NCBI RefSeq assembly: GCF_032062105.1
Contig: NW_026935501.1
Location: 1 to 64,000 of the forward strand
Reading direction: 5' to 3'
Source of the DNA: Saccostrea cucullata
Lineage: Eukaryota
Length of the DNA stretch: 64,000 bases
The stretch's first letter is position 1. Each line of letters starts with the position of its first letter. Position numbers: made by a program. Positions 35,401 to 44,500 of the stretch are shown piece by piece.

Positions 35401-38400
35401 TATCCTAGCAAGTTTGTGAAAAGGATGATGTAAATTAAACGCTAAACAATGGTTTTATTGTAAATGAAATATTTAAAACAACTCCTCCTTTTTTTTTAAA
35501 TAACTACAATCAATGACCTCAAATACACAAACTAAAACAATACCTGAGCTTTAGTCTTGCACAAAGCTCAAAGTTAACACATATCGCACTTTTTCCAGAA
35601 TTATTCTAAAATACTGTATAAGTGGAAATTTTAGCGAGACGCAAATTTAACGATTTGTCCTTAAACACCGGTAATTTATTTTTTGCACGATGTTATCTTA
35701 GCGATTTAAAAATGCACAATAAAGAAGCTATTACAAATAAAACACAATTAATTTTTAGCGATATTCAATTTTAGCGAACTCGGCTCCCTCGCTAATAATG
35801 TCAAAATTAAATCCTCGCTAAAAATTCTACTTATACGATATTAAATAGCACGATATATATGCATCTCATTTAGGAGAAATTTCATTTAAGATAATTATTC
35901 CAGAATAGCGTGATATACATTTCAATGATTCAATATATTGTTCAACGTGCAGTGCTTCTCGAGAATTTTTCACTCATACGGAGAAGCCATCAATTACCAG
36001 TGGAGAGCTCCAAATTTTGTCCTATACTTAGCACTCAGAGACATTGAGCTTGATCACTTCCTTACTTTGCGACTCTATAGCAGACGCTCTAACCACTGCA
36101 CCTCGCGGGCGACTCTAAAGCAGATGTTCTATCCACTGTGTCATGCGGGCGACTCTAAAGCAGACGCGCTTTCCACTGCGCCCCGCGGGCGACTCTAAAG
36201 CAGACACTCTATCCACTTTGTTCTGCGGGTAACTCCAAAACAGACGCTCTTTCCACTGCGCCCTGCGGGCGACATAAAGCAGACGCTCTATCTTCTGCGC
36301 CTCGCGGGCGACTCTAAAACAGATCTCTATCCACTGCGCCTCGTGGGCGACTCTAAAGCAGATGTTCTATCCACTGTGCTTCGTGGGCGACTCTAAAGCA
36401 GACGCTCTATCCACTGTGCTTCGTGGGCGACACTAAAACAGACGCTATATCCACTGCGCCTCGCGGGCGACTCTAAAGCATACGCTATATCCACTGCGCT
36501 GCGCGGGATATTTAAACTTGTTAAAGAAAAGACAAGAATAGAATAACCTCCCTCTCTTTATGTCACATCATCATGTTTACACAAAAAAAAAGCTTGGTTT
36601 TAATTTTTATTCTTTCAAAGAAATTGACTGAAATCCTCTTCCTGACATTTAATAATTTACTTATTTACTCTTGTAGAAATACCCAATGCATTTTTTTCAA
36701 CGTAATGTCAAGAGGCCTTCCGATTGTAGCAGTATCCCTACTGTGTTGGATTGTTACAGGTAAAATAAATAAAAGCCTACCTTCCAAATTGTTAAGATTA
36801 ATGTAAAAGACAGAAAAGGGGAGGAGTCTTTAACTTTTGAATTTGTTGCAAATCGAGGTTTTGACTCTGTAAGGATTTTTTTTCTGAGGCAAAGACTTTC
36901 TCTGCCGTAAAAAGGAGGACAATTCAGTTCTCCAGAATACCAAACATTAATAATTTAATTCTATATGTAACGCGTCATTTGATTGGATACGGAATTTATT
37001 TTATATCTTCTAACATAAGTTGCCTACGTCACACGATATTATTTGTCAAACGTATGACGTTACTTTTAAAATATGCTCAGTCTGAAACCATTTTTTGGGG
37101 AAGAAAAAATGTCTTATCGTCTGGACTGAAATTAAATGATACAGAATGAAGCATATTTCAACCTTTGTTATACTCTATATCAAAATGTAGGACTATACAC
37201 GCAAATTGCCTGATTGATTGATTGTTTGTATACTGTTTAACGTCCCTCTCCAGAATATTTCACTGATATGGAGACGTCACCATTGCCGGTGAAGGGCTGC
37301 AAATTTAGGCCTATGCTCGGCACTTACGGCCTTTGAGCAGGGAGGGATCTTTATCGTGCCACACCTGCTGTGACACGGGGCCTCGGTTTATACGGTCTCA
37401 TCCGAAGAACCGCCCCATTTAGTCGCCTTTTACGACAAGCAAGGGGGTACTGAGTACTTATTCTAGCCCGGATCCCCACGGGGCAAATTGCCTGAAGTTA
37501 TGTATAAGTGTATAACATAGGTTAAAAAATAAGCTTGATTCCTTAAATATTATCACTGAAATTGTATCATATTTACCATGGCTCATTGACGTGTATTGAA
37601 GTACATGAAACTTTATATAATTACATGACTCTTTATAAAATGTGAAAACATAAAATTGTGTGAGTGGGAATGAGTTAAAGTTAAAAACATAATCTTGAAA
37701 ACAATAATACTTTTATAAAATTTATATCATATGACAGTTTTGATCGCCATTAATTCGGAACCTTTGAAATGTTCCCCTGGAATTTCCGGATCCGATGTCT
37801 TGAGATGCTCCCCGGGATTTGTCAATGTGAGTGGTTGGTGTTTCTCCTTCCACAAGGAACCGACGTCCATGTTGAATTCTAGTGACTTTTGTCATCAGCA
37901 GGGGGCTCACATGGTCGTCCTAGATTCGGAGGAGAAAGAAAAAGTACTCACCAAATATATTGAAAGTAAGAGATCAGTAGTGGATGTAACTTAAAACAAA
38001 ATCCAGAAAACGAAGATTTTTATTTGTTAATTTCTGGCTGCTGTAGTTGAGACGTCATTATACAATGAATTTAATTTATTAAAAAAACTATTTATCTTAC
38101 AACCTGAACCGTATAATAGTGTCTAGGTTTAAAATCTAATTAATGTGAACACTCCTTCTGAATTACTTACTGCTGAGACGATAAAATGCATTAAATTGCC
38201 GTGTAGATCTAAGGTTACATAACCATTAAACACATATGTAAGAGGAAAATTGATTGGAAATTACTTATAGCCAAGTTTATACTGGAAATAAAATAATATA
38301 TTTTTTGTCGCTTCAGAGATGAATTTTTTCAACATANNNNNNNNNNNNNNNNNNNNNNNNNNNNNNNNNNNNNNNNNNNNNNNNNNNNNNNNNNNNNNNN

Positions 38401-41561: not shown

Positions 41562-44500
41562 TGTGTGTCTCTCTGTCTGTCTGTTTGTACGCGAAAACTT
41601 TAATACTGCCCATTGCTTTTGATTTAGTGGAGCTATGACTATCATATTTCACATGTGTATTTTTGTGACAAGACCTTTCCTAGGGTACCACATAACTTGA
41701 CATTTTGACTTGGCCTATGAGTTTGACCCTGTTTTACATAAAAATCCAAACTTTTACTTTGGCCAAATCATTTGAACAATGGATACCAGGGTTGTTATAA
41801 TTTACATATAATTCACATATATATTTTGTTAAGAGACCTTTCATTGGATACCAACAACTTTGACCTTGGAGATTTTAGTACTTGTGAAAAAACTTTAACC
41901 TTGGCCATAACTTTTGAACGGTAAGGCCTAGGGCTTTCATATTTCACCTAATTGATCCTTGTGACAAGAACTTTCATTTGATATTAAAATTCTTGACCCT
42001 TTGACCTTGACCTTTGAGTTTGACACATTTTTACACAAAAAATCTAACTTTTACTTTGACACTAATTTTTTTCAATGGTAGATTCTAGGAATATCATATT
42101 TTAAATATCAAGTCTTCGTGACAATAGCTTCCTATTGAAACCAACAATTTAAACCTTTTGACCTTAGAAATTACACATTTATAAGAAAACTTTACCTGGC
42201 CATAACATTCGAATTATAAGATTTAGGTCTTCCAAGCTTCACTTACATGTATGTAGTCATTGTGAGAAGACCTTTCGTTAGATTTCAACACTTTTAACAC
42301 TTTGACTTTGACCTTGGTTTTTGACCTACTTTTTACAAACAAATCGGAGTTTATCCTACCTTTAAAAACGCTTACCTTGGCCGTTACCTTTGAACAGGTT
42401 GTGCAAGGGTTTTCTATGTCATATTTGTATTTTTTGAAAAGGCCTTACTTTTTGTACCAACATATGTGATCTGCATTTGAGAAACCTTAACCTTCGCTAT
42501 GTTGCCATACGGGGGTATCAAAGTTTCACAAACACATCTTGTTATTGCATGTTGTTGTTTCTTGGAAGGATTTAAGACGTAAACCCCATACACCTGGGTA
42601 TATACGGAAACAATTAATTCATAACATGCTTTCATTTTTATCAAATGCATACAATAACAAAAATATTTTTGTCAAATTTCTCTACAATGTAATTGATTAA
42701 AAACTTGATACTCTTTAATCAAGAAATATGTAGATTATATTTTAACACCTTTGATAAAAAAGTTATTTAGATTTTTTTTTGCTTTCTACAAATCTGATTT
42801 TAAACTTAAAAAAAACTGCACATTAAATCTGGAAAATATATTTCTGCAGTGTATCAAAATTGTTTATTTCTAATTTCACCCATAAACATTATATTCCTAT
42901 GTTATTCAAATTGAAATAAAGTTTGGCCTAGGTTTGCTTTTGCTCGTTAGAAAATATTCTATTGTTACACATATATACCACGACGCAAAAAGAGAATACT
43001 TTCCCTTCAAATGTCTACTGAATTTGGATACAGCGGATCAAATTTTATAATTTTTAGAGCATTCAGGATGTAAAGCAACAACTCATATTGTATCGATGGT
43101 GTTTCAAATTTGAAGATTATATAATTTTTTTCTTGTCCTTTTCTGCAGAAGTTGATCTCAACGGTTCATTTGCATTTCGTGCCAATGTTTTGACATTTGA
43201 CGACAATGAAAGACTCATTTTTGATAATTGGACACCAGTGACGTATCAGAACTGGAATCCTAACGATGAGGGCGAGACAGCAGTTGACCCAATCTTTGGC
43301 CTCCTTTTGACTTATCATAACGACGGCAGGTGGCGCTGGGTGACTGAGAGAAACTACACGTACTATACAGGAGAAGACGGACTAAAACTTCCCTTTATTT
43401 GTGAGGATTCTCCATTTTATTTGGAGCATGAAGAGTGTTCTGTTACATAATGATTCATTCTCTTTTAATTAAAATAAACATTTGCAACCATTATCTTTTG
43501 TTATATAATTTCATTAAGCATGGTGTATAAAGTTCTAAATCATTAAATGGAGTATTCTTAAGTTAACGTATATTCGTCTCCTCGGAAGTCATCTAGATTT
43601 ATCCTCGGATCGTATATTCCTCTCCTCGGAAGAGATCTAGATTTATCCTCGGATTGTATATTCGTCTCCTCGGAAGAGATCTAGGTTTATCCTCATGTTT
43701 TAAATAAACTATGAATAGCATGTACACAAAGACAGACAGTGCATTATATTGTTTCGTTATTTTCCCAAGGAAACTGACTGGGATCTCCTCTCACCATACA
43801 TACAAACATTTTAGCACAAAGTGTTGTTTTTAAAATTTCTATCCGTAATCCAAAAAATAAGGGGCAAATATATTTTCCTAGGTTAGTCGGTCCAGTTGTC
43901 TGTTTGTTTTTTATTTTTTTTTTATCTTTTTCCTGATTTATCTGTAAGTGGTAAATCAATTCGCCCTGACTACAGCCTTTAATTGGTTTGAGCAATGAAT
44001 TTCATATTTCACAGGTTTTATTTCTTTATTTTGACGGTCAATTTGGAATTTGGAATTTGAGCCTTGGTCATATGAACTATGGCTTTAATATTTCACTGGT
44101 GTATTCAACGTGTAAAAACTTTTCCTAGGGTAAAAGTATTTTTGACTTTGATCTTTATGTTTGACTCACTTTTAAAGAAATTTTCAAAATATATTCTTAG
44201 CCATAGCTACTACACAGTTAAATCAAGTGATATCATACTCCTCACGCTTATATTTTGATAAGACCTTCTCTTGAGTACAAACAGTAATGACCTTTAACCT
44301 TGATCTTATGGATTTGACCTACTTTTCAAAAACGTAAACTTTGGTCGTATTTACTGAATATTTTGTGCTAGGGGTTAACTATTTTACGGGTTCATTTCTT
44401 GTGGTAAGAGCTTCTCTTGAATACCAATATTTTCTTTTTATATTTTTATCCTTTTATTTGGACATCAGACTTTGACCACCTTTTGAAAAAACTTTGGTGA

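What the first reader, a model, noticed from the sequence alone, without database searches (positions are those of the whole stretch)
37965..43149. The PR/SET block is a symmetric phase 1-1 module: exon-shuffling origin and a possible lectin-only isoform
Seen: exon 2 ends in phase 1 and exon 8 starts in phase 1. Skipping exons 3-7 gives an in-frame uninterrupted CTLD (..KYIE-K-VDLNGSFAF..), and skipping only exons 3+4 (81 nt) is also in frame. Inference: a genomic piece of a PRDM gene landed in a pre-existing CTLD intron, and splicing could switch between plain lectin and lectin-enzyme chimera.
[Added by the scan's program, not by the reader: the finding's places include an assembly gap (unread letters, written N; its length is only estimated) at 38337 to 38470. 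Whether the letters on both sides are continuous or in frame is not known: test that first.]
Basis: partly seen in the sequence, partly recalled or inferred. Interest (0 to 1): 0.72.

Follow-up and report, generated by a model that had tools for sequence, protein, structure and literature searches.

The report
Methyltransferase domain nested inside oyster lectin fold
This stretch is the middle of an annotated oyster gene in which a PRDM9-type methyltransferase domain sits inside a loop of a C-type-lectin-like fold, an unusual architecture shared by several oyster genera, while the proposed lectin-only splice form has no support.

Summary
The window is from the oyster Saccostrea cucullata. The finding lies inside an annotated gene, LOC134243014, whose 390-aa protein is P0022. 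Every readable exon matches P0022 exactly.

Confirmed: exon 2 ends in phase 1 and exon 8 starts in phase 1. Joining 37965 to 43149, or 37965 to 40014, keeps the frame.

Not confirmed: the "81 nt" for exons 3+4. Exon 3 starts at 38317 and runs into the N gap after 20 nt. The annotated protein implies 35 + 55 = 90 nt.

Exons 2 and 8 are the two halves of one degenerate C-type-lectin-like domain. Exons 5-7 encode a PRDM9-type pre-SET/PR-SET unit that keeps all three catalytic tyrosines.

The same nested architecture occurs in Saccostrea, Magallana/Crassostrea and Ostrea, in at least four subfamilies. Their PR/SET domains form one clade (99/97).

Insertion of the cassette into a phase-1 intron is therefore plausible, but donor intron positions could not be compared.

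No lectin-only protein turned up in three searches. Short contigs holding the whole chimeric reading frame suggest the chimera is the expressed product.

The architecture appears undescribed in the papers searched.

The parts
36705..36759 (+). Exon 1: start codon and hydrophobic N-terminal signal or anchor (MSRGLPIVAVSLLCWIVT); ends in phase 1
   Evidence: residues 1-18 of P0022, exact. All 15 full-length family members examined have an N-terminal run of 11-27 uncharged residues; the best 12-residue Kyte-Doolittle mean is above 1.6 in 13 of 15. No signal-peptide predictor was available.
37738..37965 (+). Exon 2: N-terminal half of the CTLD-like domain (beta0/beta1, alpha1, alpha2); phase 1 to 1
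   Evidence: Lectin_C profile positions 4-34, E 0.034. Echicetin A chain E 0.0017. The N-half profile hits the CTLD repeats of P0151 with E 2.8e-90.
38317..38336 (+). Readable start of exon 3 (phase 1 in); the rest of the exon and its donor are hidden by the gap
   Evidence: Acceptor AG at 38315-16. Six whole codons equal P0022 residues 96-101.
38337..38470 (.). Assembly gap or masked stretch (134 N) that cuts exon 3; should hold 15 coding bases and the donor; left unfilled
   Evidence: P0022 residues 102-106 have no readable counterpart.
38675..39490 (+). Minisatellite in intron 3: 20-nt unit, 42 copies. The unit equals the acceptor plus the first codons of exon 4.
39482..39536 (+). Exon 4: helical linker (ELYKIAQREWDIEAEKKN); phase 0 to 1
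   Evidence: Part of the helix 106-135 in the AlphaFold2 model.
40014..40078 (+). Exon 5: degenerate remnant of the PRDM pre-SET zinc knuckle (F-C..., only the first Cys kept); phase 1 to 0
   Evidence: C126 is present in 17 of 17 rows that have a residue there. hhalign on the pre-SET part alone: P 0.003, probability 10%.
40449..40643 (+). Exon 6: first half of the PR/SET domain (ends ...YSWQ); phase 0 to 0. An alternative AG acceptor at 40476 is used in one partial model (P0013).
   Evidence: PRDM2_PR profile positions 3-49.
41097..41334 (+). Exon 7: second half of the PR/SET domain, with the NW.R..N and ELLVWYG motifs; phase 0 to 1
   Evidence: PRDM2_PR profile 55-122, E 2.1e-21.
43149..43450 (+). 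Exon 8: C-terminal half of the CTLD-like domain (...PFICE) and stop codon TAA; starts in phase 1
   Evidence: The profile hits the CTLDs of the yolk-sac IgY receptor (E 0.0043) and PLA2 receptor (E 0.076). Predicted contact C70-C375.
43508..43540 (+). 33-nt copy of part of exon 5 (31 of 33 identical), 58 nt behind the stop codon; unexplained
3472..10943 (+). Paralogue copy B of the whole chimeric gene, a pseudogene. Stops in exons 4 and 6, a 2-nt insertion in exon 2, the last 87 nt of exon 2 missing, and a frameshift in exon 8.
16590..17820 (+). Copy C: only the end of intron 7, exon 8 and downstream sequence

Best explanation
The region is the inner part of a real, intact gene, Saccostrea cucullata LOC134243014 (8 coding exons, 390 aa), that belongs to an oyster gene family.

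The protein has three parts. It starts with a hydrophobic signal or anchor. It is built on a long-form C-type-lectin-like domain whose N-half is exon 2 and whose C-half is exon 8. A 196-residue cassette (exons 3-7) is inserted in the alpha2-beta3 loop of that domain. The cassette holds a helical linker, a degenerate PRDM-type pre-SET knuckle and a complete PRDM9-type PR/SET domain. The PR/SET domain keeps the three catalytic tyrosines and the cofactor motifs.

Shown here: the exon model, the phases, the two-halves-of-one-CTLD arrangement, conservation of the architecture in three oyster lineages, and one clade for the chimeric PR/SET domains.

Inferred: the cassette entered a phase-1 intron of an ancestral secreted CTLD gene once, before the oyster genera split. 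The full chimera, not a lectin-only form, is the working product. It most likely acts as a lectin-fold-scaffolded lysine methyltransferase in the secretory pathway or outside the cell. Its substrate is unknown.
For: Gene model: every readable exon is an exact substring of P0022; 385 of 390 residues are accounted for and the other 5 fall in the N gap. All readable splice sites are AG/GT.

PR/SET domain: PRDM2_PR scores 99.6 bits against a cut-off of 27. The best solved relative is PRDM9 at 2e-23, followed by PRDM11 at 1.4e-17. Foldseek on the AlphaFold2 model (pLDDT 77.3, pTM 0.71) puts PRDM9 entry 4c1q first at 3.8e-11. Y194, Y259 and Y275 align to human PRDM9 Y276, Y341 and Y357 (alignment; residues named in passages of PMC5519329). 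They are kept in 17 of 18, 20 of 20 and 21 of 21 aligned rows.

CTLD: the N-half profile hits the CTLD repeats of P0151 (E 2.8e-90). The C-half hits are weak (E 1), but 4 of 4 long ones abut the N-half hits with an extrapolated gap of 0. PDB hits are echicetin A at 0.0017, a CTLD of the yolk-sac IgY receptor at 0.0043 and the PLA2 receptor at 0.076. The two halves folded as separate chains score 0.72, best of 3 controls 0.01. On eukaryotes that mark was reached by 71 of 105 solved pairs and by 2 of 126 unrelated pairs. The runs agree in at least 92% of contacts, and partner pLDDT is at least 68. The contacts are the canonical ones: C70 with C375, and strand 54-57 with strand 372-376. Because CTLDs are solved many times, this pass shows likeness to that fold. 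C42, C53 and C70 are kept in 15 of 15 rows and C375 in 20 of 20.

Family: chimeras are named in S. cucullata, S. echinata, M. gigas, C. angulata, C. virginica and O. edulis, all Ostreidae. The PR/SET domains of 15 chimeras form one side of a branch, support 99/97, against 17 domains from 10 other proteins.

Expression: full 374-382-aa reading frames sit on contigs of only 1229-1603 nt (P0009, P0040, P0043). The gene spans about 6.7 kb here, so those contigs are most likely spliced mRNA.

Secretory start: an N-terminal hydrophobic segment is present in 15 of 15 full-length members.
Against: Pfam does not call a Lectin_C domain: 13.9 bits against a cut-off of 22.6, N-half only, and nothing for exon 8 alone.

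The C-half evidence is weak by sequence. The fold evidence comes from predictions that may recall solved CTLDs.

No signal-peptide predictor was run, so secretion rests on hydropathy and on the conserved cysteines.

Intron positions of oyster PRDM9 genes and of lectin-only CTLD genes were not available, so the intron-insertion step is untested. Phase symmetry alone is expected by chance about one time in three.

Homology of exons 3-4 to any PRDM region was not shown. BLASTP homology to a canonical PR/SET-zinc-finger protein begins only at residue 142.

The exon 3 end is hidden in the gap.

Many S. cucullata copies are partial or degenerate, and one of them lies in this window.

A methyltransferase outside the cell would lack an obvious supply of S-adenosylmethionine (my own reasoning).
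Confidence: 0.75

Rival explanations
1. One reading: the gene switches by regulated exon skipping between a plain secreted lectin (exons 1-2-8) and the lectin-enzyme chimera.
For: Both skips are in frame. The skipped product would have a normal-length alpha2-beta3 loop (register test). Gene models that skip SET exons do exist at another, degenerate S. cucullata locus, LOC134283677: P0048 joins exon 1 to exon 8, and P0218 joins exon 4 to exon 8. This shows that the phase-1 boundaries are combinable.
Against: No protein joins exon 2 to exon 8 among 11 hits of 175 aa or more, among the 150 listed of 1852 hits, or among the 2 hits under 214 aa. The named isoforms of the orthologues are all full length: M. 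gigas X1-X3 are each 376 aa, and the O. edulis and S. cucullata variants have identical proteins. The two SET-less models lack exon 2, so neither would make a CTLD. The domain lacks a conserved sugar-site motif by eye, so 'plain lectin' is doubtful.
Confidence: 0.08
2. The chimera is an annotation artefact: a PRDM-derived fragment or separate gene lies in the intron of a CTLD gene, and gene predictors fuse the two.
For: All named records are automatic predictions. S. cucullata has many partial models.
Against: The reading frame runs through all eight exons with AG/GT sites. The same junction residues and both CTLD halves are kept in paralogues only 33-47% identical, from four genera. Short contigs of 1229-1603 nt carry the whole chimeric ORF. 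The cassette has no start codon context or stop codon of its own.
Confidence: 0.03
3. The nested architecture is real but arose otherwise than by a genomic PRDM piece landing in an old CTLD intron. Examples are insertion into an exon followed by intron gain, retro-insertion of a processed PR/SET sequence with later intron gain, or capture from a neighbouring gene. The phase symmetry is then coincidental.
For: Symmetric phases are expected about one time in three by chance. Homology of exons 3-4 to PRDM proteins was not shown. A 33-nt copy of exon 5 lies just behind the stop codon in all three in-window copies, which hints at local rearrangement. Secreted PR/SET proteins without a CTLD exist in another mollusc (Gigantopelta P0049), so the donor need not have been a nuclear PRDM9 gene.
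Against: The cassette boundaries coincide exactly with the CTLD loop and with introns of the same phase as the exon 1/2 boundary. The cassette has four internal introns, which speaks against a processed-copy origin unless all were gained later.
Confidence: 0.2
4. The PR/SET part is no longer an enzyme and serves as a binding or structural module.
For: The zinc knuckle has lost three of its four ligands. The post-SET region and zinc fingers are absent. A secretory location would be poor in cofactor (my own reasoning). The model has low confidence at residues 199-223.
Against: The three catalytic tyrosines and the NW.R..N and ELLVWYG motifs are nearly invariant across paralogues as low as 33% identical.
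Confidence: 0.2

Closest known systems
PRDM9/PRDM7 PR/SET domain (histone H3K4/K36 methyltransferase of meiotic hotspot choice)
   Same: It is the best solved relative by sequence (2e-23) and by fold (4c1q, 3.8e-11). All three catalytic tyrosines are kept. There is a trace of the pre-SET knuckle. RefSeq names several members 'PRDM9-like' or 'PRDM7-like'.
   Different: There is no KRAB, no SSXRD and no C2H2 zinc-finger array. The knuckle has lost three of its four ligands. The protein has an N-terminal signal or anchor and is embedded in a lectin fold. It is therefore not a PRDM9 orthologue and cannot work by DNA binding.
Long-form C-type-lectin-like domains (CTLD superfamily; for example snake-venom echicetin and the CTLDs of the mannose-receptor family)
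   Same: The N-terminal hairpin cysteines, the alpha1 cysteine and the ...FICE cysteine are conserved. The N-half is clearly homologous. The predicted packing of the halves shows the canonical beta1-beta5 pairing.
   Different: The domain is split by a 196-residue insert and scores below Pfam's cut-off. The second disulfide (C2-C3) is absent, and no conserved EPN/QPD...WND sugar and calcium motif is seen by eye. Sugar binding is therefore doubtful.
Class 1-1 exon-shuffled modules of animal extracellular proteins (Patthy's rule; recalled, not from a call)
   Same: Phase 1 at both ends of the cassette, and also at the signal-peptide/domain boundary.
   Different: The PR/SET domain is not among the classical mobile extracellular modules. 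The cassette has four internal introns. Its occurrence with the same boundaries in unrelated genes was not testable.
Nested-domain SET proteins such as SMYD, where the SET domain is split by a MYND finger (recalled, not from a call)
   Same: One domain lies inside a loop of another within a SET-family protein.
   Different: Here the SET domain is the guest, not the host, and the host is an extracellular-type fold.
Secreted bacterial SET-domain effectors (Legionella LegAS4/RomA)
   Same: A SET domain that leaves the producing cell. LegAS4 appears among the Foldseek hits (5czy, rank 26, 6.7e-07).
   Different: It is bacterial, of a different SET subfamily, has no lectin scaffold and is delivered by a secretion system. 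This is an analogy only.

Membership tests
PRDM family / PRDM9 subgroup | PR/SET domain above the curated Pfam cut-off | tested here: met
   PRDM2_PR 99.6 bits (cut-off 27) and SET 41.8 bits (cut-off 22.4) on P0022. Exon by exon: exon 6 covers profile positions 3-49 and exon 7 covers 55-122.
PRDM family / PRDM9 subgroup | Catalytic tyrosines equivalent to human PRDM9 Y276, Y341 and Y357 | tested here: met
   Y194, Y259 and Y275 by the alignment. Kept in 17 of 18, 20 of 20 and 21 of 21 rows. The residues are named in passages of PMC5519329.
PRDM family / PRDM9 subgroup | C-terminal C2H2 zinc-finger array | tested here: not met
   No zinc-finger family at E up to 5 in P0022 or in 6 other chimeras. 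Controls P0073 and P0096 show them..
PRDM family / PRDM9 subgroup | KRAB and SSXRD domains N-terminal to the PR/SET | tested here: not met
   No such Pfam match at E up to 5. The N-terminus is a signal or anchor plus half a CTLD.
PRDM family / PRDM9 subgroup | Pre-SET zinc knuckle (C-x2-C ... C-x2-H) | tested here: not met
   Only the first Cys (C126) is conserved, in 17 of 17 rows. The other three ligands are absent in alignment A1. Weak profile-profile match of the region: P 0.003, probability 10%.
C-type-lectin-like domain (CTLD) | Pfam Lectin_C above the curated cut-off | tested here: not met
   13.9 bits against 22.6, N-half only. Exon 8 alone gives no Lectin_C match at E up to 1. Paralogues reach 20.6-20.8 bits.
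C-type-lectin-like domain (CTLD) | Both halves homologous to a CTLD and in register with one domain | tested here: met
   N-half E 2.8e-90 on the CTLD repeats of P0151. The C-half is weak (E 1), but 4 of 4 long hits abut the N-half hits with an extrapolated gap of 0. PDB CTLD hits at 0.0017 and at 0.0043 and 0.076.
C-type-lectin-like domain (CTLD) | Canonical disulfide C1-C4 and the long-form hairpin pair; beta1-beta5 pairing | tested here: met
   Cysteines kept in 15 of 15 and 20 of 20 rows. Predicted contacts C70-C375 and 54-57 with 372-376; score 0.72 against a best control of 0.01. This is a prediction and may reflect memory of solved CTLDs.
C-type-lectin-like domain (CTLD) | Second disulfide (C2-C3) and the Ca2+/sugar motifs (EPN or QPD, WND) | tested here: inconclusive
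   No cysteines at the expected places in exon 8, and no conserved EPN/QPD or WND in alignment A1 by eye. The column of N327 is variable. No residue-level alignment to a sugar-binding CTLD was made.
Class 1-1 exon-shuffled module | Same intron phase (1) at both ends of the module | tested here: met
   Exon 2 ends in phase 1 and exon 8 starts in phase 1. The cassette is 196 codons by P0022..
Class 1-1 exon-shuffled module | Intron positions inside the module shared with the donor gene family; an intron at the recipient site in lectin-only relatives | not testable with these tools
   No eukaryotic genome collection was available. Papers searched gave no residue-level intron positions. Supplements were closed.

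The most novel reading that the evidence does not exclude
Oysters make a family of secreted (or surface-anchored) lysine methyltransferases in which a lectin-like fold carries a still-catalytic PRDM9-type PR/SET domain in one of its loops. That would be an enzyme acting on proteins in the secretory pathway, in the extracellular space, or on microbes and foreign cells bound by the scaffold. It would have been created by one exon-insertion event and then expanded into several subfamilies.
Probability: 0.25. Interest if true: 0.8.

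Novelty: new variant of a known kind. Interest (0 to 1): 0.55.

Why it matters
Both domains are textbook folds, but the combination is not. PR/SET domains are known as nuclear chromatin enzymes tied to zinc-finger arrays. Here one sits inside a loop of an extracellular-type lectin fold, behind a signal or anchor. It keeps its catalytic residues in paralogues only 33-47% identical, from four oyster genera.

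If the protein is made and active, three things follow. It would extend lysine methylation to the secretory or extracellular compartment of an animal. It would give a clean natural example of domain insertion through a symmetric-phase intron. It would also warn that 'PRDM9-like' labels in mollusc genomes, which are used in studies of meiosis and sex determination, cover genes that cannot be PRDM9 orthologues.

If it is only a conserved oddity of unknown use, it remains a modest annotation correction.

Tried and rejected
1. My first hand model of the middle exons was dropped. It had a 21-nt exon at 39952-39972 and exon 6 starting at 40476. The database protein and the orthologues show exon 3 at 38317 and exon 6 from 40449.

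2. Pfam on single exons does not see a lectin in exon 8, so profile, PDB and fold tests were used instead.

3. Foldseek on the whole model lists only SET-type folds in the rows shown. It cannot bridge a 196-residue insert, so it says nothing about the CTLD.

4. The ESM Atlas holds P0022 letter for letter but gave no usable neighbour and has no model.

5. Rfam found nothing in the window.

6. Literature. No paper on a CTLD-SET chimera, and none naming six gene or protein identifiers of the family, was found. A survey of bivalve C-type lectins (PMC10140915, passages only) has 0 occurrences of 'PRDM' or 'methyltransferase'. The M. gigas 'Prdm9' of PMC12111275 (LOC105330008, passages) could not be tied to this family. 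Searches for PRDM intron positions gave nothing usable. For lectins I found only that the rat CLEC4f sugar-binding domain is encoded by three exons (PMC6422238, passages).

7. Homology of exons 3-4 to the SSXRD-to-knuckle linker of PRDM9-type proteins looked tempting by eye. It is not supported by BLASTP and only weakly by hhalign for the knuckle part. The global hhalign run forces an alignment and is not evidence.

8. A pseudogene reading applies to copy B, not to the gene of the finding.

Searches with window sequence were done exon by exon, and the joined step was left out. Whole-protein steps used the database record P0022/P0001.

Full report
WHAT THE WINDOW IS. Base composition (27-40% G+C) and the protein hits place the window in the oyster Saccostrea cucullata (Ostreidae). 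It is not human. The finding lies inside one gene on the + strand. I searched the window's spliced model exon by exon and left the joined step out. Where a whole protein was needed I used the database records that the tools returned.

GENE MODEL AND PHASES. The exons and their phases are listed below.

| Exon | Coordinates | Length | Phase in > out |
|---|---|---|---|
| 1 | 36705-36759 | 55 nt | 0 > 1 |
| 2 | 37738-37965 | 228 nt | 1 > 1 |
| 3 | 38317 onward | cut by the gap | 1 > 0 |
| 4 | 39482-39536 | 55 nt | 0 > 1 |
| 5 | 40014-40078 | 65 nt | 1 > 0 |
| 6 | 40449-40643 | 195 nt | 0 > 0 |
| 7 | 41097-41334 | 238 nt | 0 > 1 |
| 8 | 43149-43450 | includes stop TAA | starts in phase 1 |

All readable acceptors are AG and all readable donors are GT. 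The in-frame translation of each readable exon is an exact substring of P0022 (XP_062581206.1, 'uncharacterized protein LOC134243014', 390 aa). That accounts for 381 residues from whole codons and 4 from split codons (V19, K95, F125, E291), 385 of 390 in all.

THE N GAP. The gap at 38337-38470 begins 20 bases into exon 3. The five residues of P0022 without a readable counterpart (102-106), and the exon 3 donor, must lie in it. So the letters on the two sides are exon on the left and intron on the right. The flanks are collinear with the in-window paralogue at comparable spacing (142 versus 121 nt; coordinates only).

It holds in its essentials. Exon 2 ends and exon 8 begins in phase 1. The 37965>43149 junction reads ...KYIE-K-VDLNGSFAF..., and 37965>40014 reads ...KYIE-I-CADF... 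in frame. The '81 nt' for exons 3+4 is not reproducible. The annotated protein implies 35 + 55 = 90 nt, which is also a multiple of three. Phase symmetry by itself is expected about one time in three.

THE CASSETTE. Exons 6 and 7 cover Pfam PRDM2_PR positions 3-49 and 55-122 of 123. On the whole protein the domain scores 99.6 bits against a cut-off of 27.

Of 17 solved-structure sequences matched by P0001, 15 are PRDM PR/SET domains. PRDM9 comes first (2e-23), then PRDM11 (1.4e-17). An AlphaFold2 model of P0022, built with a 21-row family alignment, has mean pLDDT 77.3 and pTM 0.71. Its best Foldseek match is the PRDM9 SET domain, entry 4c1q, at 3.8e-11.

Using the alignment, Y194, Y259 and Y275 correspond to human PRDM9 Y276, Y341 and Y357, the three catalytic tyrosines named in PMC5519329 (passages). 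They are kept in 17 of 18, 20 of 20 and 21 of 21 aligned rows.

Exon 5 starts with F-C. That Cys is kept in 17 of 17 rows, but the other three ligands of the PRDM zinc knuckle are gone. A local profile-profile comparison of the pre-SET part alone gives only P 0.003, probability 10%. BLASTP homology to a canonical knuckle-PR/SET-zinc-finger protein starts at residue 142.

Exons 3-4 form part of a confident long helix (residues 106-135), and their origin is unknown. There is no KRAB, SSXRD or C2H2 finger. Despite RefSeq names such as 'PRDM9-like', this is not a PRDM9 orthologue.

THE LECTIN HALVES. Pfam sees only a sub-threshold Lectin_C match in the exon 2 part and nothing in exon 8.

- A profile of the exon 2 part hits the CTLD repeats of a 1816-aa multi-CTLD protein, P0151 (E 2.8e-90).
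- A profile of the exon 8 part hits the same protein only weakly (E 1). All four of its long matches start exactly where the N-half matches end, with an extrapolated gap of 0 in 4 of 4.
- Against solved structures, P0001 matches echicetin A (0.0017) and a mosquito C-type lectin (0.0096). An exon-8-centred profile matches CTLDs of the yolk-sac IgY receptor (0.0043) and the PLA2 receptor (0.076).
- Residues 42-95 and 291-378, folded as two chains, are predicted to pack. The score is 0.72 and the best of 3 controls is 0.01. On eukaryotes the mark was reached by 71 of 105 solved pairs and by 2 of 126 unrelated pairs. The runs agree in at least 92% of contacts, and partner pLDDT is at least 68. The contacts are the canonical ones, C70-C375 and strand 54-57 against strand 372-376. 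Because many CTLDs are solved, this pass shows likeness to that fold rather than independent proof.

The cysteines C42, C53 and C70 are kept in 15 of 15 rows, and C375 in 20 of 20. The second CTLD disulfide and a conserved sugar/calcium motif are not seen by eye, so 'lectin' should be read as fold, not as shown sugar binding.

The N-terminus is hydrophobic in 15 of 15 full-length members. This points to the secretory pathway, but no predictor was run.

DISTRIBUTION AND ORIGIN. The same nested architecture is annotated in S. cucullata, S. echinata, Magallana gigas, Crassostrea angulata, C. virginica and Ostrea edulis. It occurs in subfamilies only 33-47% identical to the window's protein, several of them with members from two genera.

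In a maximum-likelihood tree of 32 PR/SET domains, the 15 chimeric ones form one side of a branch with support 99/97. On the other side are 17 domains from 10 non-chimeric proteins of a snail, a vent gastropod, a priapulid, two crustaceans, two fishes, a nematode and two unnamed records. I used only rows with a known non-human source or rows already fetched. No other PRDM subfamilies were included, so the PRDM9 affinity rests on the PDB ranking alone.

One origin before the oyster genera split is thus the simplest reading. The exact coincidence of the cassette with a CTLD loop and with phase-1 introns fits insertion into an intron. The decisive comparison could not be made. It would need the intron positions of oyster PRDM9-type genes and of lectin-only CTLD genes. 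No eukaryotic genome collection was on hand, and the papers I could search gave no residue-level positions. Supplements were closed, and they may hold gene structures, for example Dataset S1 of PMC2779102.

THE ISOFORM IDEA. No protein that joins exon 2 to exon 8 appeared among the following:

- the 11 hits of 175 aa or more to exon 8;
- the 150 listed of 1852 hits to the whole protein;
- the 2 hits under 214 aa to the exon 2 part.

Named isoforms of the orthologues are all full length. Contigs of 1229-1603 nt carry complete 374-382-aa chimeric ORFs, which are most simply spliced mRNAs. Models without SET exons exist only at another, degenerate S. cucullata locus (exon 1 joined to exon 8, and exon 4 joined to exon 8), and they lack exon 2.

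SURROUNDINGS. The window holds a second, collinear copy of the whole gene at 3472-10943. It is a pseudogene. It has stops in exons 4 and 6, a 2-nt insertion in exon 2, loss of the last 87 nt of exon 2, and a frameshift in exon 8. A third fragment, with exon 8 only, lies at 16590-17820.

VERDICT. The exon-insertion origin is plausible but unproven. The splicing switch is unsupported. What is really there is an annotated but, as far as my searches show, undescribed oyster gene family with a PRDM9-type methyltransferase domain nested in a lectin-like fold.

Noticed in passing
window 43508-43540 (also 10759-10778 and 17266-17285): A 33-nt stretch of exon 5 (40023-40055) recurs 58 nt behind the stop codon, 31 of 33 identical (E 4e-9 within the window). 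Weaker copies sit at the same relative place behind copies B and C. It is more alike than the A-B introns are (67-80%). It may be a relic of a rearrangement, a product of gene conversion, or a constrained 3'UTR element.
   Followed up: partly
window 38675-39490 (and 5260-5815 in copy B): The minisatellite of intron 3 (20-nt unit, 42 copies) has as its unit the acceptor plus the first codons of exon 4 (..aacag|gaactctat..). That places about 40 look-alike 3' splice sites in front of the real one.
   Followed up: partly
window 3472-10943 and 16590-17820: A tandem pseudogene copy of the whole chimeric gene, and an exon-8-only fragment. S. cucullata records include many partial or degenerate copies on other contigs.
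   Followed up: yes
proteins P0034, P0030 and P0008 (M. gigas isoforms X1-X3): The three 'isoforms' are all 376 aa. They look like combinations of exons 1-7 from one tandem copy with exon 8 of another, that is, read-through between neighbouring family members rather than domain-skipping isoforms.
   Followed up: no
protein P0049 (Gigantopelta aegis): A gastropod protein with an N-terminal signal-like segment and two PR/SET domains separated by Cys-rich stretches, with no CTLD and no zinc fingers. PR/SET domains behind a signal may be wider in molluscs.
   Followed up: no
window 27350-27763 (-) and 48519-48887 (-): A reverse-transcriptase fragment (RVT_1, 8.1e-15) and an exon-like ORF with a PAN domain (2.1e-06).
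   Followed up: no
window 37220-37410, 62971-63159, 34594-34725 (-): A dispersed repeat (73-81% identity), SINE-like in size, inside intron 1 and at two other places. Rfam found no family in the window.
   Followed up: no
window 36069-36507, 41496-41588, 43567-43694, 32001-34000: A 40-nt x 11 tandem repeat just upstream of exon 1. A (TGTC)n run in intron 7. A 44-nt x 2.9 repeat behind the gene. A 2-kb stretch with GC skew -0.53 that holds a 242-aa ORF without a Pfam match.
   Followed up: no
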